In this document: piece by piece, positions 54,771 through 64,000 of the stretch
Numbering within the stretch: the first letter of the stretch is position 1
How the letters are laid out: each line of letters opens with the position of its first letter
Origin: Candidatus Bathyarchaeia archaeon
Lineage (GTDB): Archaea > Thermoproteota > Bathyarchaeia > Bathyarchaeales > Bathycorpusculaceae
Assembly (NCBI GenBank): GCA_050012255.1
Contig: JBEKHN010000002.1
Span: 144,118-208,117, forward strand
DNA: 64,000 nt
Reading direction: 5' to 3'
Translations under genes and position numbers: made by a program
Notes under the pieces: model-generated
Database searches by the model: none
What the model was told of the DNA's origin: nothing
The model's input: the letters and a program-made list of their open reading frames with translations, nothing else

Positions 54771-54896
54771 CGCGTTGCTGTTTGCAATTTCCATTTAGAT
54801 GTTCACGGGTCTACCCCATCGAGCCTAATCATGCTGTTTAGCGGCGTGCGGTTCCATTATTCTTCAGAAAAACAAAAAGTGGTTGTTGCGGCATTG

Positions 54897-55790
54897 TTAC
54901 TCAGAATTGTTACGGGTGACTGACAGAACCGTAGATTTCAATTTAGCGCGCTTTTCAACAACTTTCATCAAGAGGTATGTTAAACCTGCTCCGGCAATAG
55001 AGATTCCGGGCAATGCAACGGTTGCGACGTTCAACGCTTCTGTAACGGCCGTTTCATTTGTCGAGATTTCCGTGCGGACATCATAAATGGACGTGAATGT
55101 GCTAGTCATGCCAGGTGGAATAATGCCGCTGATAGTGTCTTGGGAACTGAAACGAACCGAGAATAGATAGTTTCCCGGGGCAAGCTTTGTTGACTTGTCT
55201 ACAAACGTTCCATCGACAAACCCTGGGGGAATCGTTCGCAAAGGGTAAACCCAGGAGGAATCGTTAGCAAAGAGTCTGGAGCTGTTTAAGTCGATTACAC
55301 ATGATCCCTCAGACCAGAACCCCATCCCTGGACCGATTGTAAATGGCAGTTGCCCAGTATTGTCTGCGAAAAATATCGTCTTGTTTTCAAATGACAACGT
55401 CAGGTTTATCCTGTAGTCCTGGGTCACCCACCCAAAGAGCGTCCCCTCACCAAAGTACACCCCTACACGAAGGCTTTCAGCTCGATCGCTAACATTGAAT
55501 GCATAAGTCTTCGTCGCCCTAGATGAACCGTTATAAGTAAGGTCACTTGTCTCTTCAGTTGAAAAAGGTTCACCATAAAATGCCTTGCTACCGATAACAC
55601 GGACAGTTCCGTTGTAGTCGAGCACCCTGAAAAAACCCTCCATTCTCGCAGTGTTGCCAGCGCTGTTTGTCATCACCAATGCACCAGGGAATACGTACAG
55701 GCCGACAATAAAAACGATCAGACCAACGACGCAAGCAGCAACAAATGCGCTTCTTTCACGCAAAAGACATTTCACCCAATGACAGTGCAC
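54897..55790 (-). CDS. hypothetical membrane-anchored extracellular protein
   Basis: N- and C-terminal TM segments; beta-rich core with several N-x-S/T sequons. Confidence 0.6.
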   Translation of the reverse strand: MHCHWVKCLLRERSAFVAACVVGLIVFIVGLYVFPGALVMTNSAGNTARMEGFFRVLDYNGTVRVIGSKAFYGEPFSTEETSDLTYNGSSRATKTYAFNVSDRAESLRVGVYFGEGTLFGWVTQDYRINLTLSFENKTIFFADNTGQLPFTIGPGMGFWSEGSCVIDLNSSRLFANDSSWVYPLRTIPPGFVDGTFVDKSTKLAPGNYLFSVRFSSQDTISGIIPPGMTSTFTSIYDVRTEISTNETAVTEALNVATVALPGISIAGAGLTYLLMKVVEKRAKLKSTVLSVTRNNSE

Positions 55791-56206
55791 TCAGAGATGG
55801 AAGCATTCATTAAACCACAATATATAGTCTTGGTAATTCAGGGTGTTCGGAGCGCCGACGTATCCGTTGTCGTTACAATTCATTGTGAAATGTACAACAT
55901 TTGACAGGTCTAAAATTCTCACCTCAGTTGAGTAAGACTGCCGGGCCAGCGTCTCCTCTTTCCATGCACATGCGCATTAGAATAATGCCCCGAAAGATGC
56001 CGACGAATTCTTCTCAGAAGGACATGCAGACCTTCATGGGTCCTGAGATAACAACGCGTACTGTTGAGTCCATATTTTCACCCGGCATTCAAAAGTAGTA
56101 GACCATCTGAAAAGTCTAAAAAGAATATCACAATTTCTCATGGAAACGACAAATGCCTAAATAAGATCCAGTAATGCAAGCTAAGTAATCAGGAGAAACA
56201 GGTAAC

Positions 56207-57346
56207 ATGGTCAAACCAGGCACTTATTTCTGGTCAGGAAACGAAGCCTGCGTTGAAGCAGCAATAATCGCTGGTTGCAGATTCTTCGCTGGATACCCAA
56301 TATCACCCTCAAACGAGATACTTGAACGCCTCTCAGAACGCCTACCGCAGGTTGACGGCATATTCCTGCAGATGGAAGACGAGCTGGCTTCGATAGGCGC
56401 GGTTATGGGCGCCAGCTGGGCAGGGAAGAAGGCTATGACGGCCACTTCTGGACCGGGCTTCAGCCTGATGCAGGAGACTATAGGCTGGGGCTTCATGACT
56501 GAAACCCCGTGTGTGATAGTTGATGTTCAAAGAGTTGGACCTGGCACTGGACAGGCAACCAAGTGCGGTCAAGGAGACGTAATGCAAGCACGTTGGGGAA
56601 CTCACGGTGACTACGCGGCAATCGCGCTTTCGCCTAACTCGGTGCAAGAGATGTTCGAACTTACGGTGAGAGCTTTCAACTTGGCTGAAAAGTATCGCAC
56701 GCCCGTGATCCTGTTGGCAGACGAGACCATAGCTCATTTGAGGGAGCAGGCAACTGTGCCGCGACTTAAGCAAATAAAAATATTTGACCGAAAAAAACCA
56801 GGACCCAAGGACAGAGCTTTCTTCGGCTCAGAAGAAGTTGCGCCGATGCCATCGGTAGGCGAAGGCTTCAACGTCGCTGTTACAGCTTCGACCCACGACG
56901 AGTATGGTGTTCGATTTACACAGGACCCGCTTGTTCACAGAAGAATGTTAAGCAAACTTAATGCCAAGATAAACGATCACGCAGACGACATCGTTGAAGT
57001 GGAAGACTACAACGTTGACGATTGCAAGGTTGGCATAGTCTCCTACGGCTGCACGTCCCGCGCTGTCTACGAGGCTACTGAACGGGCAGAAGCTGAAGGA
57101 ACGAGCACAGGCTACGTCAGACTGAAGACAATCTGGCCTTTTCCAGACAAGGCTGTCAAACGACTCGCTGAAAGTGCTGAAAGAATAATCGTTCCAGAGA
57201 TGAACCTTGGGCAAATCAGCCGCGAAGTTCAAAGAGTTGCGTGCAACGCAGAGGTCATTCCGCTGAACAAGATCGGCGGAGGAGAACTTATCACGCCTGA
57301 AGAGTTACTGACCAAGATTCTGGAAGGAGGAAAGCAAAGTGGCTGA
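56207..57346 (+). CDS. 2-oxoacid:ferredoxin oxidoreductase alpha subunit
   Basis: GNEA, FAGYPISP, TATSGPG, QRVGPGTG, EMNLGQ. Confidence 0.92.
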   Translation: MVKPGTYFWSGNEACVEAAIIAGCRFFAGYPISPSNEILERLSERLPQVDGIFLQMEDELASIGAVMGASWAGKKAMTATSGPGFSLMQETIGWGFMTETPCVIVDVQRVGPGTGQATKCGQGDVMQARWGTHGDYAAIALSPNSVQEMFELTVRAFNLAEKYRTPVILLADETIAHLREQATVPRLKQIKIFDRKKPGPKDRAFFGSEEVAPMPSVGEGFNVAVTASTHDEYGVRFTQDPLVHRRMLSKLNAKINDHADDIVEVEDYNVDDCKVGIVSYGCTSRAVYEATERAEAEGTSTGYVRLKTIWPFPDKAVKRLAESAERIIVPEMNLGQISREVQRVACNAEVIPLNKIGGGELITPEELLTKILEGGKQSG

Positions 57347-58178
57347 AGCATTCTCACCTCGAAAGTACATGAGAGACTTAAGATTGCCCTTCTGCGCAGG
57401 CTGCGGACTTTTTTCACTCAGTGACGCTTTTCTCAGAGCCGTGCACGAGCTGGGCCACGAAGACCTGACCGGCTTCTGTTTCACAAGCGGCATAGGCTGC
57501 TCCTCATGGATTCCTTCGCCCTATTTTGAAGCCGATTCGGTCCACACACTTCATGGAAGAAGCATACCGCCCGCCACCAGCATAAAACTCATACGCCCAG
57601 ACCTGAACGTCGTGGTCTTCGGCGGCGACGGAGACATAGTCGGCATAGGCCTAAGCCACTTCCTACACGCAGCGAGGAGAAACACCGATATCCTCGTCAT
57701 AATGGGCAACAACATGGTTTACGGAATGACAGGCGGCCAAGTAGCCCCCACAACACCCTTCAAAACGCGGACGACAACCACGCCGTACGGAAGCTTTGAG
57801 TATCCAATAGATGCGGCGAAGCTCGCAGTTGCGGCTGGAGCGGCATACTCCGCGCGATGGACAACCGCACATTTGCACGAATTAGTAGAGTCAATCAAAA
57901 AAGCATTGCAGATGCAAGGTTTCAGGTTCATCGAAGTTGTGACCCACTGCCCAACAGCCTACGGGAGGAGAGCAGGATTCAAAAACATCGCAGAAATGCT
58001 CAAGCACTTCAAAGAAAACGCCGTCACAGTTCAGCAAGCTGAAAAGATGAGTCCTGAAGAGCTTGAAGCGAAAATAGTCGTCGGAGAATTCGTTACAAGA
58101 AGACGCCCAACACTGGTTGAAACAGTATATGCCGTGATTAAGGAGGCAAAGGAAAACGGCGATCAAAAAAGAGATTAG
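57339..58178 (+). CDS. 2-oxoacid:ferredoxin oxidoreductase beta subunit
   Basis: CAGCG, SGIGCS, HGR, GDGD..NN..YGMTGGQ, CPT. Confidence 0.92.
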   Translation: MAEAFSPRKYMRDLRLPFCAGCGLFSLSDAFLRAVHELGHEDLTGFCFTSGIGCSSWIPSPYFEADSVHTLHGRSIPPATSIKLIRPDLNVVVFGGDGDIVGIGLSHFLHAARRNTDILVIMGNNMVYGMTGGQVAPTTPFKTRTTTTPYGSFEYPIDAAKLAVAAGAAYSARWTTAHLHELVESIKKALQMQGFRFIEVVTHCPTAYGRRAGFKNIAEMLKHFKENAVTVQQAEKMSPEELEAKIVVGEFVTRRRPTLVETVYAVIKEAKENGDQKRD

Positions 58179-58683
58179 AATAGGCGGAAGCGGCGGGCAA
58201 GGCATAGTCTTGGCCGCCCAAATATTGGGCAAGGCCGCAGTCCTAGATGGGAAAAATGCGTTACAAACGCAGACATACGGCGCCGAAGCAAGAGGAAGCC
58301 TTGCCACGAGCGAAGTCATAATCTCAGACAACAAAATAGGGTTCCCAGCAGTCAGAAGACCCGACGTACTAGTGGCTATGAGTCAGGAAGCGCTTGACAG
58401 GCTACTCAAGGATTTGAAGGAGAACGGAACGCTGATAATTGACAGTTCCAACGTGACCAAGATACCCGAATCAAAGGCAAGGGTCTACAGGTTTCCGATA
58501 ACAGAAACGGCGAAGAAAACTTTCGGAGAAGCCATGTACGCTAACATGGTTATGCTTGGAGCTTTAATAAGGATGACCAGACTGGTCACGGTTCAATCAA
58601 TGGAAAAAACGATAAGAGAAAATGTCTCAGCAAAGACTGTGGAAACCAACATCAACGCCTTTAGAAGAGGATTACAACTCTAA
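58156..58683 (+). CDS. 2-oxoacid:ferredoxin oxidoreductase gamma subunit (apparent ACG start)
   Basis: Frame extends 5' of the ORF-track start to include EIRIGGSGGQG; YGAEARG, NMVMLGA. Confidence 0.85.
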   Translation, partial: TAIKKEIRIGGSGGQGIVLAAQILGKAAVLDGKNALQTQTYGAEARGSLATSEVIISDNKIGFPAVRRPDVLVAMSQEALDRLLKDLKENGTLIIDSSNVTKIPESKARVYRFPITETAKKTFGEAMYANMVMLGALIRMTRLVTVQSMEKTIRENVSAKTVETNINAFRRGLQL

Positions 58684-58775
58684 TTTTGGCGCGCGCAAAA
58701 CAGACACGTTCTTGGCATGTGCGAAGAGTATATGTTTGTTGGCTGCCATATTGTGAATGTTCTTGCCGGGGTTGA

Positions 58776-59693
58776 TTGATGTCTGAACAACCACTTGATT
58801 TTGATCCGCGGGATTGGCACAATGTCCAAGCAGCGGACGAGATGGATGTATCCAGATATTTCGAGTATGATGATGACGCGATCTTCCAATTGAGGAAATG
58901 GCTCAGGCTGGATCAGGCTGCTCCCAAGACCATAGTGGAAATAGGATGTGGAGGCGGATACTTCACTGGAAAGCTTGTTGCGATGGCTTCTGCATTGAAG
59001 GAGATTTGGGCAGTCGAGCCTGACGATGTTCTAAGAGAGTATGCGTCGCGGAAATTCTCTTCTCTGGTCAAATTCCTGAAGGGTACTGCGGAGAAGATAC
59101 CGTTGTCTGAGGAATTCGCCGACCTGACAGTCTGCCACATCGTGCTCAGCAACCTACCTGATGTACCTCGAGCTGTGGCTGAAATGGCCCGGGTGACAAA
59201 AAAAGACGGAATAGTTGCTGCGATAGAGCCCGGCGAAAGCCGAATGCACTATTCGCCTGATCCTAAATTGAATGAGATGGAAGAGAAAGTGTTGCAGGCA
59301 TACGGAAAAGGCATCTGGGACCTGCGGACCAGACTATTTGACTTTTCAAAGGATTTGAAAAAGAAAAACGCTCGGTACCCAGAGGTGTTCAATAATTGTG
59401 GTCTGCGCAACGTAGAGGTACATGGTTTGCTTTCTGTCTTCTTACTCAGCGATCCTCGTAGAGATGCTACGGAAATTCTTGGCTGGCTCAAGAAGCGGGT
59501 ATTTCTTTTCGAAAGAGACTGGGATCGTACAAAAGTCATCCTTCAGCGCGGAGGGCTCGGAGGGCATGATATCCAAGCATATTTTGAGGCTGAGAAAGCG
59601 TATCTAGGCAATTTGATCGAGCATCCCGAGCAGATCTCCAAGACCCATGAGTTACAAACGTATTCGCGTACAGTAACCATTGGATTCAAATGA
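58776..59693 (+). CDS. class I SAM-dependent methyltransferase
   Basis: VEIGCGGG, GTAEKIPL, EMARVTK.DG. Confidence 0.85.
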   Translation: MMSEQPLDFDPRDWHNVQAADEMDVSRYFEYDDDAIFQLRKWLRLDQAAPKTIVEIGCGGGYFTGKLVAMASALKEIWAVEPDDVLREYASRKFSSLVKFLKGTAEKIPLSEEFADLTVCHIVLSNLPDVPRAVAEMARVTKKDGIVAAIEPGESRMHYSPDPKLNEMEEKVLQAYGKGIWDLRTRLFDFSKDLKKKNARYPEVFNNCGLRNVEVHGLLSVFLLSDPRRDATEILGWLKKRVFLFERDWDRTKVILQRGGLGGHDIQAYFEAEKAYLGNLIEHPEQISKTHELQTYSRTVTIGFK

Positions 59694-59955
59694 GGAAAAT
59701 GAAGGGATCTGAGCCAAGCGCGCGCACCAAGGAAATGGGTGTAATCTAAGCTCCAGGAACTCATTCCTAAAGGTTTGAAACTTCATTCGCTGCGTCTACT
59801 GTTCCATTCTTCGCTAGGCAGGTTCAGGTTCTGGATTCTGTTGGTACTTGTTTAGATTCATCAAGGTTCATCCAATGGGTTTCGTTTCCTCACTTTTCAA
59901 CACGACTAAATCGCAAGAGAAAAGCTCTTTGCCTTGATAACCGTCACGTACCGTA

Positions 59956-60483
59956 ATGACTCCGGCGAATTGTGACCATCGTATGAGAGTGCGAATCAGG
60001 CAAGTGAAGGATGAAGAGGTTCCGGCAATCCTTAGATGGCTAGAGGACCCTCCCTTCCGTTCCGAGTTTCTGGCATTCGGCAGAGATTCGGATTCAGTGG
60101 TAATTGAGAAGTTAGGAGACGTGGTTCACGGTAAGGAGGAGGCAAGTTATCTAGCGATCGAACGAATAATGGATTCAAAGCTTATCGGCTTAGTTTTCTC
60201 CCACAAAGTTCCCAATTTTCATTACTTCGAAGTGGGGTTCTACGTTGTTCCTCAGGAGAGAAGCAAGGGCTACGGTACGAAAGCGATGAGATTACTCTTG
60301 GAGCACATCTTTGAAAAGCGATCAGTTAAGACGATTGTGGCTGGAACGTCTTCTCTTAACGTAGCATCGCAGAAGGCCTTGCTGAAAGCTGGGTTCAAAA
60401 AAGTTGGGACGCTCAAGAAGACACTTTTCAGGAATGGTTTGTGGGAGGATTCGATAATCTACCAAGTCACGAGCGATGAGTGA
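59956..60483 (+). CDS. RimJ/RimL-type GNAT acetyltransferase
   Basis: EVGF..KGYGT, NVASQKALLKAGF, RNGLWED. Confidence 0.85.
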   Translation: MTPANCDHRMRVRIRQVKDEEVPAILRWLEDPPFRSEFLAFGRDSDSVVIEKLGDVVHGKEEASYLAIERIMDSKLIGLVFSHKVPNFHYFEVGFYVVPQERSKGYGTKAMRLLLEHIFEKRSVKTIVAGTSSLNVASQKALLKAGFKKVGTLKKTLFRNGLWEDSIIYQVTSDE

Positions 60484-60542
60484 GGTTTAGAAGGTTCGCT
60501 GAAGAAGGAAAAAGGTTCTCAAATCCTCTAACAGGGCGCGCG

Positions 60543-60734
60543 CTGAGCAAGATTGATGTCGAATACGGTCTTGATGATATGTTGAAGTTCAGAGACAACG
60601 TTTTCGTTCTTTTCTATGCTTCACAGTGTCCTTTTTCACAGAGGTTCTTGCCAATTTTTGAAAAGTTCGCTCAAGGCAAAGCGCAGAGTTGTCTACGCGT
60701 TAAAACTGACGATAAGGCAAGTCTCTGCGAGAAA
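60543..60734 (+). pseudogene. thioredoxin-like fragment, C-terminal half missing
   Basis: VFVLFYASQCPFSQRFLPIFEK..DDKASLCEK, then similarity ends at GCGCGCGCG with no cis-Pro strand. Confidence 0.7.
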
Positions 60735-60743
60735 GCGCGCGCG

Positions 60744-60844
60744 TTAAGGCTGACGTTGTCGATCGCTACGCTGACTGCCAAGAATCCTGGTGCAATCACA
60801 GTTGGAATAACCGTGATTGTTGGCAGTGCTTTCTTTAGGTTCAT
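60744..60844 (-). pseudogene. N-terminal signal-peptide-like fragment
   Basis: GGAAGTGA SD-like, then MNLKKALPTITVIPTVIAPGFLAVSVAIDNVSLN running into the GC repeat. Confidence 0.4.
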
Positions 60845-60909
60845 TCAGTCACTTCCTATGTTGTTTTGAAAAGAAAGAAGACCTAGCTCTGTTTCGAGGG
60901 AATTGGCGC

Positions 60910-61150
60910 GCCCTTGGGAACACTTTTATTTAGGAACCCCTCAGCCTTGGATGGGTTTCCCGGTTCAATCCAACAAATGCAACTGGTGCCTGTCAGTTTG
61001 CTACAGGGTTGAATCGTTGGGAACCCTCTCCTTCCTTTTGAGGAAAGGTGCAGGAGTAAAGTTTGCCTAGCTTGGGGACATTTAAGAAAGTTGCCACCTA
61101 GAAAGAGTCCTTGGTAACAGGATATGCTCTGCAAGTTGCCTGTACCTAAG
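60910..61150 (+). ncRNA. candidate multi-stem structured RNA
   Basis: 19-bp stem 60953-61026 with G-U pairs, hairpin 61028-61056, GTAA-capped stem 61104-61130. Confidence 0.45.
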
Positions 61151-61195
61151 TCACTTCTCTGAGCGCGCGCTATTTATCATATCGAGCCAAAGTAG

Positions 61196-61762
61196 TCATG
61201 ATTTAGGGAACTGTTCTTTCAGATATGGACAGTTCTTGTCTTCAACACGATCATAATATCCTATCTCCCAATCTTTTGGACTCAATAGGCCGTATTCTGT
61301 GCAACCAAGCATCCACGACATAACGTGCGCTATTTCGACTCTTTCATTTGACTTGAAGTAGCGCTTCTTGACCATTTGGAGGACTAGTTTGCTCATTTTG
61401 GCTAGGAAGTCACAGAATTCGGCGAACTTTCTTGGTCCAAACTCATCAATTCTTTTCTTAGGAGACTAGGCAACATATTTTTCAAAGGGATGGTTAACGC
61501 CTGGATCGACAACAAACTTGTCTTCAAATAGCAAACTTCCGAGCTTGTAAGCAATCTTACTCCTAATCACTTCTTTGACTCTGGGCTCTACTTAAACACG
61601 GTAACTGAAGACAGCTTCATCATCCATGCGGTTTCTAATCAAGAAGTGCTGATTCTTTACACCTTCACCATCCTTCATGAAAGCATAGAAATCGACGAGG
61701 ACGCTCCTTATGTTGTCTTGCTTACATTTGAAAACAGTTACACACCAATCATTACTTTCCAT
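61196..61762 (-). pseudogene. hypothetical protein gene with two in-frame stops
   Basis: ORFs 61592-61810 and 61196-61396 share one frame, interrupted by TAA at 61592-61594 and TAG at 61466-61468. Confidence 0.7.
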
Positions 61763-62022
61763 AGCAGACATCACTCTATCTTCGAATTTCTTACTATAAA
61801 ACGCTAGCACTCACGCTTGAACCTAAGAAGACCAAGAGGGTCTTTGCAAAAATCTGGCATAGAACGCTTTTCATACAGTTCACCCATACACTAACACCCT
61901 AAAAAACAAAAAGCTACTTGAGTGTTTATTGGGCCACTTACCTTGCAGGGGGGAGGTAGCCTTGACCTTATGGTTAAATATGTGGCCAGTCAAGATAACA
62001 TTCTGATTAGGGGAGGAAGTGA

Positions 62023-62151
62023 ATGCAGGAAAGGGCTAGGCGAAAGTGTAAAGCTTGTGGAAACCTGTTCATGCCAGACAATGATTTTCAAGGCTTCTGC
62101 TCAGACAGGTGCTACCACGTTTTCAGAGGAGAAATAAAACCAAGTGCCTAG
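62023..62151 (+). CDS. 42-aa zinc-finger microprotein (absent from ORF track)
   Basis: MQERARRKCKACGNLFMPDNDFQGFCSDRCYHVFRGEIKPSA; GGAGG SD, TTAAATA upstream. Confidence 0.65.
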   Translation: MQERARRKCKACGNLFMPDNDFQGFCSDRCYHVFRGEIKPSA

Positions 62152-62554
62152 CATAATCTAGCCTTTCACGCACATTTAGAGGCAGCTCCTCTAGACGATT
62201 TTAGCGCGCAAATACAAGGAGTTTATCAAGAAATAACAAGCTCTAGCTTCTATCTTCGCTCTCTAACCACTCTTCTGTTTTGTCTCAAATCTATTCACCT
62301 TTTTTTAGAGTGCTTACGATGAATCTTTCGAGTTTTTCTATTACTTCGCTTATAAGTCATTTTTCAATCTTCTTTGTTTTCTTATTTCATTATTCCGACG
62401 ATTATCTTGTAGAATGTTGTATTGTCCATAGTGCTTAATAATTATTCGCGCGCGCTCGAAGACGAATTCAGGGGATTGGAAGAGCAATCGATCGATCGCA
62501 AGGAAAGAACTGGCGTATGATGTTATGCATTAGGACGCGCACCACAATTGAGAA

Positions 62555-62647
62555 CTATTTCTTTAGTCGCTTCTCCTTATGTTTTCTTCTTTTTTCTTCT
62601 CTTTCCTTTTTAGTCATTGGTTTCTTCTTGGTGGCTCCAGTGCTCAA
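62555..62647 (-). CDS. 30-aa basic microprotein (absent from ORF track)
   Basis: GGTGA SD, TTG start, MSTGATKKKPMTKKEREEKRRKHKEKRLKK. Confidence 0.45.
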   Translation of the reverse strand: MSTGATKKKPMTKKEREEKRRKHKEKRLKK

Positions 62648-62783
62648 CGCAATCACCACACTCAAGTAATCAGAATAGGGAATTAAGTTTTTGCGGCTTA
62701 ACTAAAAGTTTCTAAGATTAGCCAGTCGTCTTTAGGTTCCCATCTCTTCTTTCTACACTTGCTTGCCTTCTCGCGCGCGCTAA

Positions 62784-62936
62784 AAAACAGCAAAATTCAG
62801 GATTAATTTTGAAGGCGAGACCTACTACTTCTGCTCCGCGAGTTGCAAAGAAAAATTCAAACGCCATCCAAAGAAGTTCATTGAACAATTTACGTTCTAT
62901 GGAAGTCTACTCATTAAATCTGCGTGCGCATTCTAA
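62784..62936 (+). pseudogene. YHS/TRASH domain fragment lacking its N-terminus
   Basis: KTAKFRINFEGETYYFCSASCKEKFKRHPKKF; the usual DPVCGM start is absent, and upstream lies GCGCGCGC-TAA. Confidence 0.75.
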
Positions 62937-63361
62937 GAACACAGCTGTAACAGTCAAACCTAACTGTGCAACACGGAGACCATCAGCGGCTTCACCAGAA
63001 TATCATCTGCTTTAATGTAAAAGCGTCCCGAAAATGTGGGAAAAAAAGAGAGTGACCTATCGCTGTTAGCTCTCTATTTAGTTTTCTTTTTACTTCCTTT
63101 TTCTTCTTTCCGGTCGGACTTTTGGACAGGATGCGACCTCAAATCCACAGTTATCAGCGCGCGCTCCTCACACTCACAAATGCAACGGCTTCTTTATCGC
63201 AAAACTATCAAAGGACAAAATCTAAACAGAAATCAAGAGCGAGGAGGAAGCGGGCAAGCGAACTCTCACAAACATGCCCACTCCAGACCATAAAAAGACT
63301 CGCGAACTCAACACTCAGGCAGTAGCCAAGAAAAGGTTTCCCCTTCTCTGCACTCACTTCT

Positions 63362-63568
63362 TTGCTTCAAACGAATGTCCAAGGGTTTAAACGCGAATTT
63401 GCAGAGTATTTGGGCGCAAAGCATGCAATTTGTATCTCAAACGGCACAATATCCCTTGAAATAGCTCTGTTAGCTATGGGTATAGGTAAGAGTGATGAGG
63501 TCATCACTTCGCCTTGCGCATTCGTTGTCGTTCCAATAAGGTGTGTGTTAGAAAAATCTTCACTGTAG
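63362..63568 (+). pseudogene. DegT/DnrJ/EryC1/StrS aminotransferase fragment
   Basis: FKREFAEYLGAKHAICISNGTISLEIALLAMGIG..DEVIT only. Confidence 0.75.
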
Positions 63569-63659
63569 TACACTACAACTAGGGATTAACAAAACGCGCA
63601 TGCTCATTTTTGCAACAACTTGCAAGAGATCATGATTTGACTGAATGTGTATGCGTCAG

Positions 63660-63806
63660 CTAATGAAGTTGATAGTTTATTTTTCCTTTTTCATTCACTT
63701 TAGATATGATTATGGTGAATTGTGCACCTTTGCCAGGAATGACATTTTCTTCTATGGTCCAACCGTAAAATTCCGTAATCTGGATCAGGTAGAGTCCGTA
63801 GTCTGA
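63660..63806 (-). pseudogene. histidine kinase HATPase C-terminal fragment
   Basis: YGLYLIQITEFYGWTIEENVIPGKGAQFTIII..NYQLH*, beginning directly at the (GC)5 repeat. Confidence 0.75.
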
Positions 63807-63884
63807 GCGCGCGCGCTAAATTAAAAAGGTGACAAAACTTCTATATATATTAGGTGTCTAAGCTTGAACTAGGGGAGATCGAAT

Positions 63885-64000
63885 ATGAAACCTGAACATT
63901 ATAAACCGATAAGGAAAGAAAAGCCCAAACGAAAAGGCAAGATTAGTGCGCGCAAAAGTCGAATGCTTGCAGCGGCTCAGAATGGAAACCTATTACTTCT
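63885..64000 (+). CDS. basic small ORF running off window
   Basis: TATATATA box and GGGGAG SD upstream; MKPEHYKPIRKEKPKRKGK. Confidence 0.35.
   Translation, partial: MKPEHYKPIRKEKPKRKGKISARKSRMLAAAQNGNLLL

What the first reader, a model, noticed from the sequence alone, without database searches (positions are those of the whole stretch)
58689..63953. Gene mosaic whose segments are joined at GCGCGCGC palindromes
Seen: nine GCGCGCGC octamers in about 5.1 kb of AT-richer DNA, versus two found by eye in the preceding 58.6 kb. An independent-base estimate gives roughly one per few hundred kb. They lie just after intact genes (58689, 59718, 60536, 61163) or exactly at breakpoints of fragments: thioredoxin (60735), YHS (62773) and histidine kinase (63807). 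Flanks are partly shared: TCTGAGCGCGCGC(GC)TA occurs at both 61158 and 63802, and GCGCGCTAAA recurs. No integrase or transposase is visible. Inference: either a cassette acquisition/shuffling system using a short palindromic core site, or a repair process leaving (GC)n filler at deletion junctions (alternating CG is also Z-DNA prone). I know of no described archaeal system matching this.
Basis: partly seen in the sequence, partly recalled or inferred. Interest (0 to 1): 0.85.

Follow-up and report, generated by a model that had tools for sequence, protein, structure and literature searches.

The report
Transposon-end scars at gene-fragment junctions
The short palindrome GCGCGCGC, the commonest eight-letter word in this uncultivated archaeon's genome, sits where DNA segments were gained, lost or cut, and most likely derives from the ends of one family of jumping genes.

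Summary
Nine (GC)4-5 tracts lie in window 58689-63816 and two in the other 58.6 kb; shuffles expect 0.94. It is a genome-wide trait, not a local system. GCGCGCGC is the most frequent 8-mer in this 2.35 Mb Bathyarchaeia genome (434 copies) and in a complete sister genome, G001 (464). By a crude gene call, 344 of 393 tracts are non-coding. Flanks are random except A before and T after.

Against G001 (92.5% identity), tracts sit at synteny breaks. Both flanks align at 37 of 389 tracts, against 776 of 2000 random non-coding positions. In 32 clean cases an untemplated (A)GCGCGCGC(T) replaces 36-3289 bp, truncating real genes.

A likely source exists outside the window: a ~1.08 kb IS5-like insertion sequence (DUF772 + DDE_Tnp_1) and its MITEs, whose inverted repeats start with GCGCGC. 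At three loci, and at two of the window's own tracts in another population, element and (GC)4 alternate at one position.

Best reading (about 0.5): scars of these element ends, joined by an encoded Ku/LigD pathway. A landing-pad role or a transposon-independent repair filler is not excluded. It is not an integron-like system.

The parts
58689..58696 (.). GCGCGCGC tract starting 6 nt after the stop of the POR-gamma gene. Synteny with four genus genomes ends here.
   Evidence: PF01558 for 58210-58683. G001, G007, G003 and G004 each carry different DNA right after the stop codon, and none has the tract.
58685..59947 (+). 1.26 kb segment with an intact SAM-methyltransferase ORF (58776-59693) and the tract at 59718-59725. 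Absent from sister genome G001, which has 1.14 kb of other DNA here.
   Evidence: Methyltransf_11, E 4.8e-17.
59948..61172 (+). Block shared with G001 at 93.8% identity. It holds the GNAT ORF (59956-60483), tracts at 60536-60543 and 60735-60742 (both kept in G001), a weak thioredoxin-like ORF (60480-60869), and a ~135 bp repeat at 60919-61052 preceded by GGCGCGCC.
   Evidence: The repeat has copies at C2:395-502 and C20:32065-32199, each with a (GC)3-4 tract at its left edge.
61158..61172 (.). Left copy of the 15-nt direct repeat TCTGA-GCGCGCGC-TA. G001's undivided site reads TCTGAGCGGGCGCTAAATT. In metagenome run X3 a contig runs from this tract into a TIR-like sequence.
   Evidence: table 7: loose end at 61168 reads TGGCTTGTCCCTAAATTCGGCAA, which matches the TIRs of related elements.
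61173..63801 (.). 2.6 kb present here and missing at this site in G001. It is a mosaic of a stop-ridden pseudogene (61196-61810, minus strand), a 257 bp module (61953-62209) ending in GCGCGC, tracts at 62448 and 63157, and gene fragments.
   Evidence: 61953-62209 is 91% identical to C33:1484-1739, with a tract at the end of homology in both copies. 63165-63255 is 97% identical to C33:6143-6235, with homology starting right after the 63157 tract.
62773..62780 (.). Tract at the 5' truncation point of a YHS-domain fragment (62784-62933). In run X3 a contig continues from here into another TIR-like sequence.
   Evidence: YHS profile 13-46 of 47. table 7: loose end at 62780 reads GCGCCAGCTCGTTGCTAAATCG...; compare the TIRs of L187, L199 and L206.
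63362..63568 (+). Internal fragment of a DegT/DnrJ/EryC1 aminotransferase gene.
   Evidence: profile 25-75 of 360, E 1.6e-15.
63670..63806 (-). C-terminal fragment of a histidine kinase (HATPase_c part), cut off exactly at the tract.
   Evidence: 73% nucleotide identity to C5:53757-53863; homology ends at TGAGC next to the tract. (the C5 ORF is PAS + HATPase_c 302-402). Pfam on the fragment itself found nothing.
63802..63818 (.). Right copy of the direct repeat, TCTGA-GCGCGCGCGC-TA. DNA to its right is again syntenic with G001. Other populations join the same right flank to other left partners at this tract.
   Evidence: loose ends at 63811 and 63824; joints 62771>63808 (X2) and 63155>63806 (X4).

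Best explanation
The (GC)4-5 tracts (consensus A-GCGCGCGC-T) are the end signature of one family of cut-and-paste elements. The family is a ~1.08 kb IS5-like insertion sequence encoding a 329-aa DUF772 + DDE_Tnp_1 transposase, plus its 150-290 bp MITE derivatives. Their terminal inverted repeats begin with GCGCGC.

Proposed mechanism:
1. An element end carries GCGCGC to a new site.
2. When the element is lost, a few terminal bases of each end stay behind and are joined, giving 8 (less often 10) alternating G/C. The sharp cap at 10 nt and the G...C register fit this.
3. The break is healed by the organism's own Ku/LigD end-joining operon.
4. The same elements cause or accompany adjacent deletions, replacements and the arrival of foreign segments. 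The scars therefore end up at homology breakpoints and at the cut ends of gene fragments.
5. They persist only in dispensable DNA. This gives a non-coding, low-GC, island-clustered distribution.
6. The scars may then be re-used as landing sites.

On this reading the window's last 5.3 kb is a decaying variable island at a contig end that has been hit repeatedly.

SHOWN: genome-wide abundance and non-coding bias; untemplated tract at deletion junctions; coincidence with synteny breaks; existence, ends and spread of the IS/MITE family; element and tract alternating at the same position; the NHEJ operon.

INFERRED: that the tract is produced by loss of the element rather than being its target; how many bases each end leaves; the link between element activity and the large deletions.
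For: ABUNDANCE AND SHAPE OF THE TRACT
- GCGCGCGC ranks first of all 8-mers: 434 copies, next word 287. In G001 it has 464 copies.
- Non-coding DNA holds 371 copies against 5-62 expected from Markov orders 1-3.
- Tract lengths: 6 nt 355, 7 nt 171, 8 nt 201, 9 nt 123, 10 nt 63, 11 nt or more 6. GCGCGCGC 176 against CGCGCGCG 25.

THE ELEMENT FAMILY
- 98 TIR ends in G000 + G001; 78 have GCGCGC as their outermost bases, and 63 of those 78 are preceded by A.
- Complete ~1.08 kb copy at L180:889-1968 and an intact 329-aa ORF at L176, with DDE_Tnp_1 E 7e-25 and DUF772 E 1e-10.
- Relatives at 40-74% identity in other Bathyarchaeia families also have TIRs starting with GCGCGC next to varied flanks: 12 of the 14 loci where a TIR was found, out of 20 examined.
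- 6-7 nt tracts are often element termini (124 of 1052 sides adjoin recurrent families). Tracts of 8 nt or more rarely are (23 of 786).

ELEMENT AND TRACT AT THE SAME POSITION
- C3:43056: MITE in G000; TA-GCGCGCGC-TA in G001 and G010; a decayed 8-mer in G007.
- C3:176079 and C1:141572.
- G003 locus L244 against G001.
- Window positions 61168 and 62780, where run X3 contigs continue into TIR-like sequence.

JUNCTIONS
- Both flanks align in 37 of 389 tracts against 776 of 2000 controls; one-sided 159 of 389 against 427 of 2000.
- 32 clean replacements of 36-3289 bp by untemplated (A)(GC)3-5(T).
- The DUF996 domain (residues 2-141) spans a junction at about residue 120, so the long allele is ancestral there.
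- Truncated YHS, DegT and HATPase_c in the window.

ASSOCIATION
- 5-kb bins with a TIR hold 1.51 tracts against 0.75 in other bins.
- Across 301 class genomes, those with the transposase have a median of 16.2 tracts per Mb against 5.0. Of the 15 genomes at 100 per Mb or more, 9 have it, against 57 of 301 overall (not corrected for phylogeny or GC).

END JOINING
- LigD Prim-Pol, Ku and ligase + phosphoesterase lie in one row at G000:C10.
Against: - No element or TIR lies in the window itself, allowing up to 3 mismatches. The link rests on the rest of the genome and on run X3.
- No locus showed all three states (untouched, occupied, scar). At C3:43056 three genomes have the tract and only one has the MITE. 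Insertion into a pre-existing tract is therefore at least as parsimonious there.
- A simple insertion-excision cycle should leave the same flanks as intact elements. TA precedes 44 of 78 element ends. By my count, both sides are TA in about 6 of 15 paired MITEs. Only 4-8% of 8-mers have TA on both sides, and the two sides are statistically independent.
- In most of the 32 replacement events the long allele carries neither an element nor a tract. At least two steps, or an aberrant one-step event, must be assumed.
- Four pure insertions add 6-15 nt with no clear target duplication.
- 393 tracts stand against roughly 35 elements.
- 31 of 57 genomes with the transposase have fewer than 20 tracts per Mb. 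6 of 15 tract-rich genomes, and all 10 genomes of family f31, show no transposase at E <= 1e-20. MAGs often lose repeats, so this is weak either way.
- Hairpin-type DDE transposases of the IS4 group leave no element bases on the donor (recalled). This family's cleavage pattern is unknown.
- At the UbiA locus G001 and G007 share the short allele, so polarity by parsimony is unclear there.
Confidence: 0.5

Rival explanations
1. Landing pad. The 8-mer exists for another reason. The IS5-like family merely targets it (for example a 4-bp staggered cut in the middle of GCGCGCGC, which would also give GCGCGC on both sides of the element) and excises precisely. The tract's own origin is then a separate process.
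For: - At every polymorphic site with a clean element-free allele, that allele has the tract, never an untouched site: C3:43056 in G001, G010 and (decayed) G007, L244, C3:176079 and C1:141572.
- Tract length beside elements (6, sometimes 7 or 8) equals the free tract length (8, 9, 10) minus 2 on each comparison seen.
- Two different element subfamilies sit at two of the window's nine tracts in run X3.
- Recalled: IS5-group elements make 4-bp duplications of a palindromic target, PIF/Harbinger MITEs excise precisely, and some IS families target REP repeats.
Against: - It leaves the abundance of the tract unexplained (371 non-coding copies against 5-62 expected), as well as its untemplated appearance at deletion junctions.
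- 14 of 30 element ends with a mapped outer flank face DNA with no GC tract in the other genome. Those sites are one-sided, so this is not decisive.
- Related elements in genomes with few 8-mers still carry GCGCGC at both ends, for example G247 with 12 copies.
Confidence: 0.2
2. Repair filler. Double-strand breaks of any origin are resected by 0-3 kb. They are then joined after a self-complementary alternating G/C stretch is added or copied at the ends, for example by the encoded LigD primase-polymerase with Ku and ligase. The transposon ends resemble it only because the elements evolved in that setting.
For: - The tract is untemplated at 32 junctions, with deleted lengths forming a continuum from 36 to 3289 bp. 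There are also small replacements of 8-17 nt and four pure insertions.
- The two flanks are independent.
- A complete LigD Prim-Pol / Ku / ligase + phosphoesterase operon exists, and Ku is found in 5 of 5 genus genomes searched.
- A self-complementary tail would let any two ends pair (inference).
Against: - Ku does not track the tract across the class. All 25 Ku-positive genomes of family f35 have 4-31 copies, and 9 of the 15 richest genomes have no Ku hit.
- No known end-joining polymerase writes a fixed 8-10 nt sequence (recalled).
- The G...C register, the A/T flanks and the identity with the first six bases of the TIRs would all be coincidence.
Confidence: 0.15
3. Dedicated site-specific cassette system (integron-like). 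A recombinase exchanges segments between GCGCGCGC core sites.
For: - The 2.6 kb segment at 61173-63801 is flanked by a 15-nt direct repeat containing the tract.
- Metagenome contigs join pairs of tract sites: 62771>63808, 63155>63806.
- A few insertions have tracts at both ends (7 of 20).
- 9-15 tyrosine-recombinase hits per genome.
Against: - Flanks carry no further conserved sequence or structure.
- Most long alleles have no tract at their junctions. Conservative site-specific recombination cannot create a site.
- 13 of 20 simple insertions have a tract at one end only.
- No recombinase gene lies in or next to the island.
- Joints between two tracts are also what microhomology-mediated deletion would give.
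Confidence: 0.05
4. HIP1-like highly iterated palindrome. It spreads by biased nucleotide substitution or repair linked to a GCGC-type methyltransferase, or is kept by selection as a protein-binding signal.
For: - It is an octameric palindrome and the most frequent 8-mer.
- About 20 aligned sites differ from the tract by one or two substitutions in the other genome.
- C5-methyltransferase genes are present in G000.
Against: - 344 of 393 tracts are non-coding, unlike HIP1 (recalled).
- Only 37 of 389 sites are alignable at all. Turnover is mostly by indels and replacement.
- A C5-methyltransferase was found in only 2 of 5 genus genomes, although 10 of 10 genus relatives show the tract.
Confidence: 0.04

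Closest known systems
HIP1 (GCGATCGC), the highly iterated palindrome of cyanobacteria (recalled; search listing only)
   Same: An 8-bp GC-rich palindrome that is the most over-represented octamer of a genome. It was reported at the borders of a deletion, and its origin is unexplained.
   Different: HIP1 is common inside genes and is said to spread by substitution (recalled). Here 344 of 393 copies are non-coding and turnover is by insertion or replacement. Here a transposon family shares the sequence at its ends.
Excision footprints of eukaryotic cut-and-paste transposons (Tc1/mariner, Sleeping Beauty, P element; recalled)
   Same: A few terminal bases of both inverted repeats are left at the donor site and joined by NHEJ. 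Scars mark former insertion sites.
   Different: Those scars are flanked by the duplicated target on both sides. Here TA flanks both sides of only 4-8% of 8-mers. Footprints are not known as a genome's top oligomer, nor from IS5-like elements in archaea. My searches found no such report.
IS5 family insertion sequences and their MITEs; eukaryotic PIF/Harbinger with mPing (recalled; abstract of PMC2836001 seen in the listing)
   Same: A DDE transposase of about 330 aa with DUF772 + DDE_Tnp_1, an element of about 1.1 kb, short TIRs, many MITE derivatives and a short target duplication.
   Different: NCBIfam scores are far below the cut-offs of the IS5 and IS1182 models. The TIRs start with a palindromic GCGCGC. 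The duplication (TA?) is not settled.
REP/REPIN elements with RAYT transposases, and IS elements that target REPs (recalled)
   Same: Hundreds of short extragenic palindromes, which may serve as insertion sites for particular IS families.
   Different: REPs are 20-40 nt imperfect hairpins moved by Y1 transposases. Here the unit is 8-10 nt with random flanks, and no Y1_Tnp gene was found in 5 genus genomes.
Integron gene cassettes with attC sites (recalled)
   Same: Arrays of short segments, some with one intact gene followed by the repeat.
   Different: There is no attC structure, no adjacent integrase and no fixed orientation. The repeat appears de novo at deletion junctions.
Bacterial and archaeal Ku/LigD non-homologous end joining (recalled, e.g. 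Mycobacterium, Methanocella)
   Same: The operon with Prim-Pol, Ku, ligase and phosphoesterase is present. The junctions show deletions with short untemplated insertions.
   Different: Known NHEJ fillers are short and variable, not a fixed palindrome.

Membership tests
IS5-like insertion sequence with MITEs | DDE transposase of the DDE_Tnp_1 type with an N-terminal DUF772 | tested here: met
   L176 329-aa ORF, PF01609 E 7.2e-25 (profile 5-198 of 200), PF05598 E 1.2e-10. NCBIfam IS1182 and IS5 models match only below their cut-offs, on a broken copy.
IS5-like insertion sequence with MITEs | Terminal inverted repeats bounding the element; short non-autonomous copies with the same ends | tested here: met
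   98 ends; 18 pairs in G000 and 3 in G001, most spanning 151-286 bp; a full copy of about 1084 bp.
IS5-like insertion sequence with MITEs | Direct target-site duplication of fixed length | tested here: inconclusive
   TA precedes 44 of 78 ends. About 6 of 15 pairs have TA on both sides, by my count. Several pairs have unequal flanks. No collinear untouched site was found.
Transposon excision footprint | The same site occupied by the element in one genome and carrying only terminal element bases in another | tested here: met
   C3:43056; L244; C3:176079 and C1:141572; window 61168 and 62780 against run X3.
Transposon excision footprint | An untouched allele (no element, no remnant) at that same site in a third genome, fixing the order of events | tested here: not met
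   At C3:43056 all four genomes have the element, the tract or a decayed tract. The 14 tract-free alleles are one-sided.
Transposon excision footprint | Remnant flanked on both sides by the duplicated target | tested here: not met
   TA on both sides of 4% (G000) and 8% (G001) of 8-mers. The two sides are independent.
HIP1-type highly iterated palindrome | Octameric palindrome that is the most frequent 8-mer | tested here: met
HIP1-type highly iterated palindrome | Abundant within coding sequence; propagation by nucleotide substitution (features recalled) | tested here: not met
   49 of 393 tracts lie fully inside predicted genes. Gains and losses are mostly indels or replacements.
Integron / attC cassette array | attC: 50-150 bp imperfect inverted repeat with conserved core sites (recalled) | tested here: not met
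   Flank composition is at background beyond positions -1 and +1.
Integron / attC cassette array | Integron integrase gene next to the array | tested here: not met
   No recombinase ORF in 57000-64000. The window ends at the contig end, so DNA beyond it is unseen. Tyrosine recombinases exist elsewhere in the genome.
REP/RAYT system | Y1 (IS200-like) transposase in the genome | tested here: not met
   PF01797 found in 0 of 5 genus genomes. The control search found it in 6 of 14 reference genomes.
Ku/LigD NHEJ | Ku, ATP-dependent ligase, Prim-Pol and phosphoesterase domains | tested here: met
   LigD_Prim-Pol E 7e-84; Ku E 2e-40; DNA_ligase_A_M + A_C + LigD_N in adjacent ORFs of L267. That this pathway makes the junctions was not tested.

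The most novel reading that the evidence does not exclude
Bathyarchaeia seal chromosome breaks by writing a fixed self-complementary tag, (A)GCGCGCGC(T), onto the ends before ligation. This would be a new, sequence-specific end-joining route (Ku/LigD-dependent or not). It would delete genes, leave a readable scar at every repair site, and make that scar the commonest word of the genome. The IS5-like elements would have adopted the tag as their ends or as their landing site.
Probability: 0.12. Interest if true: 0.9.

Novelty: new variant of a known kind. Interest (0 to 1): 0.62.

Why it matters
- It offers a concrete, testable origin for a hyper-abundant short palindrome. That question has stayed open for cyanobacterial HIP1.
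- If the scar reading holds, these genomes keep a written record of hundreds of past transposon visits and the deletions that came with them. This is unusual for prokaryotes, where donor sites are rarely re-joined. The presence of a full Ku/LigD operon would explain why it can happen here.
- It shows how gene loss and island turnover proceed in a widespread, uncultivated archaeal class. Only 37 of 389 tract sites are alignable between genomes that are 92.5% identical.
- In practice the tracts and their MITEs mark where MAG assemblies break and where strain-level variation sits.
- A transposase that leaves, or targets, a fixed 8-bp palindrome could be useful as a tool.

Tried and rejected
- MITE or larger repeat around the tract: rejected. 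Flank positions -15 to -2 and +2 to +15 are at background.
- Microsatellite slippage: rejected. Lengths stop sharply at 10 nt and one register dominates.
- Promoter or terminator signal: density is similar in tandem, divergent and convergent spacers (0.67, 0.62 and 0.82 per kb). There is only a small excess within 10 nt of stop codons, 18 against 6 near starts.
- IS630/Tc1-mariner transposase, suggested by the TA flanks: PF13358 in 0 of 5 genomes. PF01359 also in 0 of 5, but that control found nothing anywhere, so it says nothing.
- Structured RNA in 58000-64000: no Rfam match at E <= 0.1.
- TIR in the window: none with up to 3 mismatches.
- Genus-specific trait: my first sample suggested it. 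The class survey showed hundreds of copies in several other families, so this was dropped.
- Composite-transposon excision with TA targets as the cause of the large deletions: the long alleles show no TA at their junctions.
- 4-bp GCGC target duplication from untouched GCGC sites: pure insertions add 6-15 nt, not 4.
- Ku as the determinant: not supported across the class.
- More polymorphic MITE sites from G003 and G007: 21 ends were examined and 1 was informative.
- Segments bounded by tracts on both sides: a minority, 7 of 20 simple insertions.
- Assembly artefact: unlikely. G001 is a single-contig genome with the same trait. Contigs of other runs bridge 59718 (X2), 60536 and 60735 (X2, X3, X4), 62448 (X3), 62773 (X2) and 63807 (X4). 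Among the rows shown, 58689 and 63157 are bridged only by X1 or by no run. X1 may be the source sample and the table was cut, so nothing follows from that.
- Literature: searches (listings and abstracts; passages of PMC13343696) gave nothing on this tract or on IS footprints in Bathyarchaeia. Supplements were not opened.

Full report
OBSERVATION

GCGCGCGC occurs 12 times in the window, counting overlaps. Ten of these matches (nine tracts) lie between 58689 and 63816, and two lie in the preceding 58.6 kb. Dinucleotide-preserving shuffles give a mean of 0.94 and at most 4. The last 6 kb has 41-47% GC. The window is G000:C2:144118-208117, so it ends at a contig end.

Pfam confirms several intact genes:
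- a pyruvate:ferredoxin oxidoreductase gamma gene ending at 58683;
- a SAM-methyltransferase gene (58776-59693);
- a GNAT gene (59956-60483).

It also confirms fragments:
- a YHS domain lacking its first 12 profile positions, starting 4 nt after the 62773 tract;
- a 51-residue piece of a DegT aminotransferase.

The minus-strand fragment that ends at 63806 has no Pfam hit of its own. It is 73% identical to part of a PAS + HATPase_c gene on contig C5, and the homology stops at the tract. The thioredoxin assignment rests on a sub-threshold hit only. The shared flank TCTGA-(GC)4-5-TA at 61158 and 63802 is real.

IT IS A GENOME-WIDE TRAIT

In the whole 2.35 Mb assembly GCGCGCGC is the most frequent of all 8-mers: 434 copies, with the next word at 287.

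Alternating G/C tracts have an odd length distribution: 355 of 6 nt, 171 of 7, 201 of 8, 123 of 9, 63 of 10 and only 6 longer. The register starting with G and ending with C dominates, 176 against 25 for exact 8-mers.

Fifteen positions on either side are at background composition, except A at -1 (245 of 393) and T at +1 (222 of 393). There is no larger repeat around the tract.

With a crude gene caller of my own (79% coding), 344 of 393 tracts are not fully inside a gene. That is 0.71 per kb of non-coding DNA against 0.026 per kb of coding DNA. Density is similar in tandem, divergent and convergent spacers. Non-coding DNA holds 371 copies against 5, 15 and 62 expected from Markov orders 1-3.

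Tracts are over-dispersed, favour low-GC bins, and pile up at contig ends and on small contigs. The finding's region is one of about thirty such hot bins. By my arithmetic, its density is roughly three times the non-coding average.

COMPARISON WITH RELATIVES

The organism is a member of the Bathyarchaeia, judged from the record titles of close homologues. Ten of ten genus relatives have 7-114 copies of AGCGCGCGCT against 0-4 of the reversed control.

One relative, G001, is a single-contig genome. I fetched it whole. It has 464 copies, again the top 8-mer, and aligns to G000 over 1.51 Mb at 92.5% identity.

In the window:
- Synteny with G001 runs to 58684 and stops at the stop codon. G001, G007, G003 and G004 all differ from there on.
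- The methyltransferase segment 58685-59947 is replaced by other DNA in G001.
- 59948-61172 is shared.
- 61173-63801 is absent from G001, whose undivided site reads TCTGAGCGGGCGCTAAATT.
- 63802-64000 is shared again.

Genome-wide:
- Both 200-nt flanks of a tract align collinearly in G001 for 37 of 389 tracts, against 776 of 2000 random non-coding positions.
- Only one flank aligns for 159 of 389, against 427 of 2000.
- Among one-sided sites the homology ends within 5 nt of the tract in 56 of 159, against 98 of 427 controls.

THE TRACT IS NEW MATERIAL AT JUNCTIONS

In 12 (G000) + 20 (G001) clean cases both flanks run up to the tract, and the other genome has 36-3289 bp in its place.

Extending exact matches from both sides leaves an untemplated core. 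It is mostly (A)(GC)3-5(T), for example AGCGCGCGCT three times and GCGCGCGC twice. It is shorter where the long allele happens to offer GC or GCGC.

Most long alleles carry no tract at either junction, and their junctions show no TA preference.

Real genes are cut. A DUF996 domain (residues 2-141) spans a junction at about residue 120. A cohesin-domain protein loses its first ~343 of 394 residues. A UbiA gene is almost exactly removed.

For DUF996, and for the window's truncated YHS, DegT and HATPase_c, the longer form must be the older one. At the UbiA locus G001 and G007 share the same short allele, so simple parsimony is unclear there.

Smaller events also exist:
- four pure insertions of 6-15 nt;
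- several replacements of 8-17 nt;
- about 20 sites where the other genome has a one- or two-base variant.

A TRANSPOSON FAMILY WITH THE SAME SEQUENCE AT ITS ENDS

One 'insertion' turned out to be a 174-bp MITE with 45-nt inverted repeats. A search for its core found 98 ends in G000 + G001. Of these, 78 have GCGCGC as the outermost six bases. TA precedes that hexamer in 44 of the 78, and A precedes it in 63.

Most copies are 150-290 bp MITEs of several subfamilies. At least eight G000 contig ends lie inside them.

The autonomous form is about 1.08 kb. There is a complete copy in G001 (L180:889-1968, two overlapping ORFs), an intact 329-aa ORF in G009 (L176) and a broken copy in G000:C24. The protein has DUF772 and a full DDE_Tnp_1 domain. 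NCBIfam places a broken copy nearest IS1182 and IS5, far below their cut-offs.

Relatives of the transposase occur in 57 of 301 Bathyarchaeia genomes. A TIR was found at 14 of 20 loci examined. In 12 of those 14 the TIR begins with GCGCGC (or GCGCGCC) next to unrelated flanks, although the rest of the TIR differs. The hexamer is therefore a conserved feature of the element ends.

In G000, tracts of 6-7 nt often adjoin recurrent TIR families (124 of 1052 sides). Tracts of 8 nt or more rarely do (23 of 786). Bins with a TIR hold twice as many long tracts (1.51 against 0.75).

ELEMENT AND TRACT ALTERNATE AT ONE POSITION

- At C3:43056 G000 has TA-GCGCGC-[MITE]-GCGCGC-TA. G001 and G010 have TA-GCGCGCGC-TA. 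G007 has TA-TCGCGAGC-TA.
- A G003 MITE end corresponds to CGCGCGCGC in G001.
- Two more G000 ends face 9-nt tracts in G001. At one of them (C3:176079) G001's two flanks lie 6.6 kb apart (my subtraction of the two G001 coordinates), each beside a tract, where G000 has only a MITE.
- Most relevant to the finding: contigs of an independent metagenome run (X3), laid on the window, follow the window up to 61168 and 62780. They then continue with TGGCTTGTCCCTAAATTC... and GCGCCAGCTCGTTGCTAAATCG.... These are TIRs of two subfamilies seen (table 7).
- The same laying shows contigs that join pairs of tract sites: 62771>63808 in X2, 63155>63806 in X4 and 63164>63662 in X3. It also shows other left partners at 63807.

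WHAT I COULD NOT SETTLE

Whether the long tract is what the element leaves or what it lands in. No locus showed untouched, occupied and scarred states together.

Of 30 element ends with a mapped outer flank:
- 7 are shared between the genomes;
- 4 face a tract of 8 nt or more;
- 4 face 6-7 nt;
- 1 faces 4-5 nt;
- 14 face DNA without a tract.

The 14 tract-free sites are one-sided, just as most tract sites are, so they do not prove free choice of target.

Against a simple insertion-excision cycle, TA flanks both sides of only 4-8% of 8-mers, and the two sides are independent.

Against a pure landing-pad role, nothing else explains where hundreds of untemplated copies come from.

Across the class the transposase and tract density go together only loosely: medians 16.2 against 5.0 per Mb, Spearman 0.33, and 9 of the 15 richest genomes have the transposase. 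This was not corrected for phylogeny, GC content or the loss of repeats from MAGs.

OTHER ENZYMES

- The genome has a complete end-joining operon: LigD Prim-Pol, Ku, and ligase with phosphoesterase, in adjacent ORFs. This could heal excision breaks or write fillers.
- Ku occurs in 73 of 301 class genomes and does not track the tract. All 25 Ku-positive f35 genomes have at most 31 copies, and 9 of the 15 richest genomes have no Ku hit.
- Tyrosine recombinases are numerous, 9-15 hits per genome.
- Y1 transposases were not found.
- C5-methyltransferases are in 2 of 5 genomes.

VERDICT

The pattern is not a local cassette machine. It is the local face of a genome-wide, class-wide association between (GC)4-5 tracts, structural turnover of dispensable DNA, and an IS5-like IS/MITE family with GCGCGC ends.

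I put about 0.5 on 'scars of element ends', 0.2 on 'landing pads with another origin', 0.15 on a transposon-independent repair filler, and the rest on site-specific recombination, a HIP1-like process or other causes.

I found no description of this in the papers I could search. Those were listings, abstracts and passages only, with no supplements.

Noticed in passing
G000:C10:11503-14555 (locus L267:4-3055): A complete Ku/LigD-type end-joining operon in an archaeon: LigD Prim-Pol (287 aa), Ku (306 aa), and ligase + 3'-phosphoesterase (464 aa). Ku is present in 5 of 5 genus genomes searched and in 73 of 301 Bathyarchaeia genomes, concentrated in families f1, f24 and f35.
   Followed up: partly
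window 54772-56063: A 1.29 kb stretch that G001 lacks; G001 has about 94 bp of unrelated sequence there. It has no GC tract at either junction, so not every indel in this genome carries the tract.
   Followed up: no
window 60919-61052: A ~135 bp repeat with copies at C2:395-502 and C20:32065-32199 at 92-93% identity. All three copies have a (GC)3-4 tract at the left edge, and one copy is truncated on the right by another tract. It has very high summed contig depth in four metagenome runs (bin 60892-61075). No Rfam match.
   Followed up: partly
window 62023-62151: A 42-aa four-cysteine ORF with a weak NinG-like hit (E 5.5e-4, below cut-off). It lies inside a 257 bp module that recurs at C33:1484-1739 and, inverted, in G001 (L013:9105-9360), each time ending at a tract.
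   Followed up: no
window 61196-61810 (minus strand): A pseudogene broken by stops, with 66-67% identical paralogues at C2:2239-2782 and C5:58918-59475. No Pfam family for its two largest open pieces.
   Followed up: no
G001 locus L013:4354-4375: Where the window has its first tract, right after the POR-gamma stop, G001 carries a different perfect 14-nt palindrome, CTAGCGTACGCTAG.
   Followed up: no
G000 contigs C23 (5' end) and C24 (5' end): Both contigs start in a head-to-tail repeat of about 36 nt with no spacers, in reverse-complement orientation to each other. This is probably one unresolved tandem array.
   Followed up: no
G000:C34:~2760-2830 and similar places: A recurrent composite unit: GCGCGC + 25 nt of a TIR (TGGCTTGTCCCTAAATTCGCTGATA) + a 9-nt tract + another repeat (TAAGAGCATATACG...). 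It is seen at five or more places, so some long tracts are internal parts of repeated units.
   Followed up: no
Class survey, handles G099, G107, G134, G081 (family f31): Genomes with 100-601 GCGCGCGC copies but no hit to the IS5-like transposase at E <= 1e-20 in any of 10 f31 genomes. These are a good test set for separating the tract from this element family.
   Followed up: no
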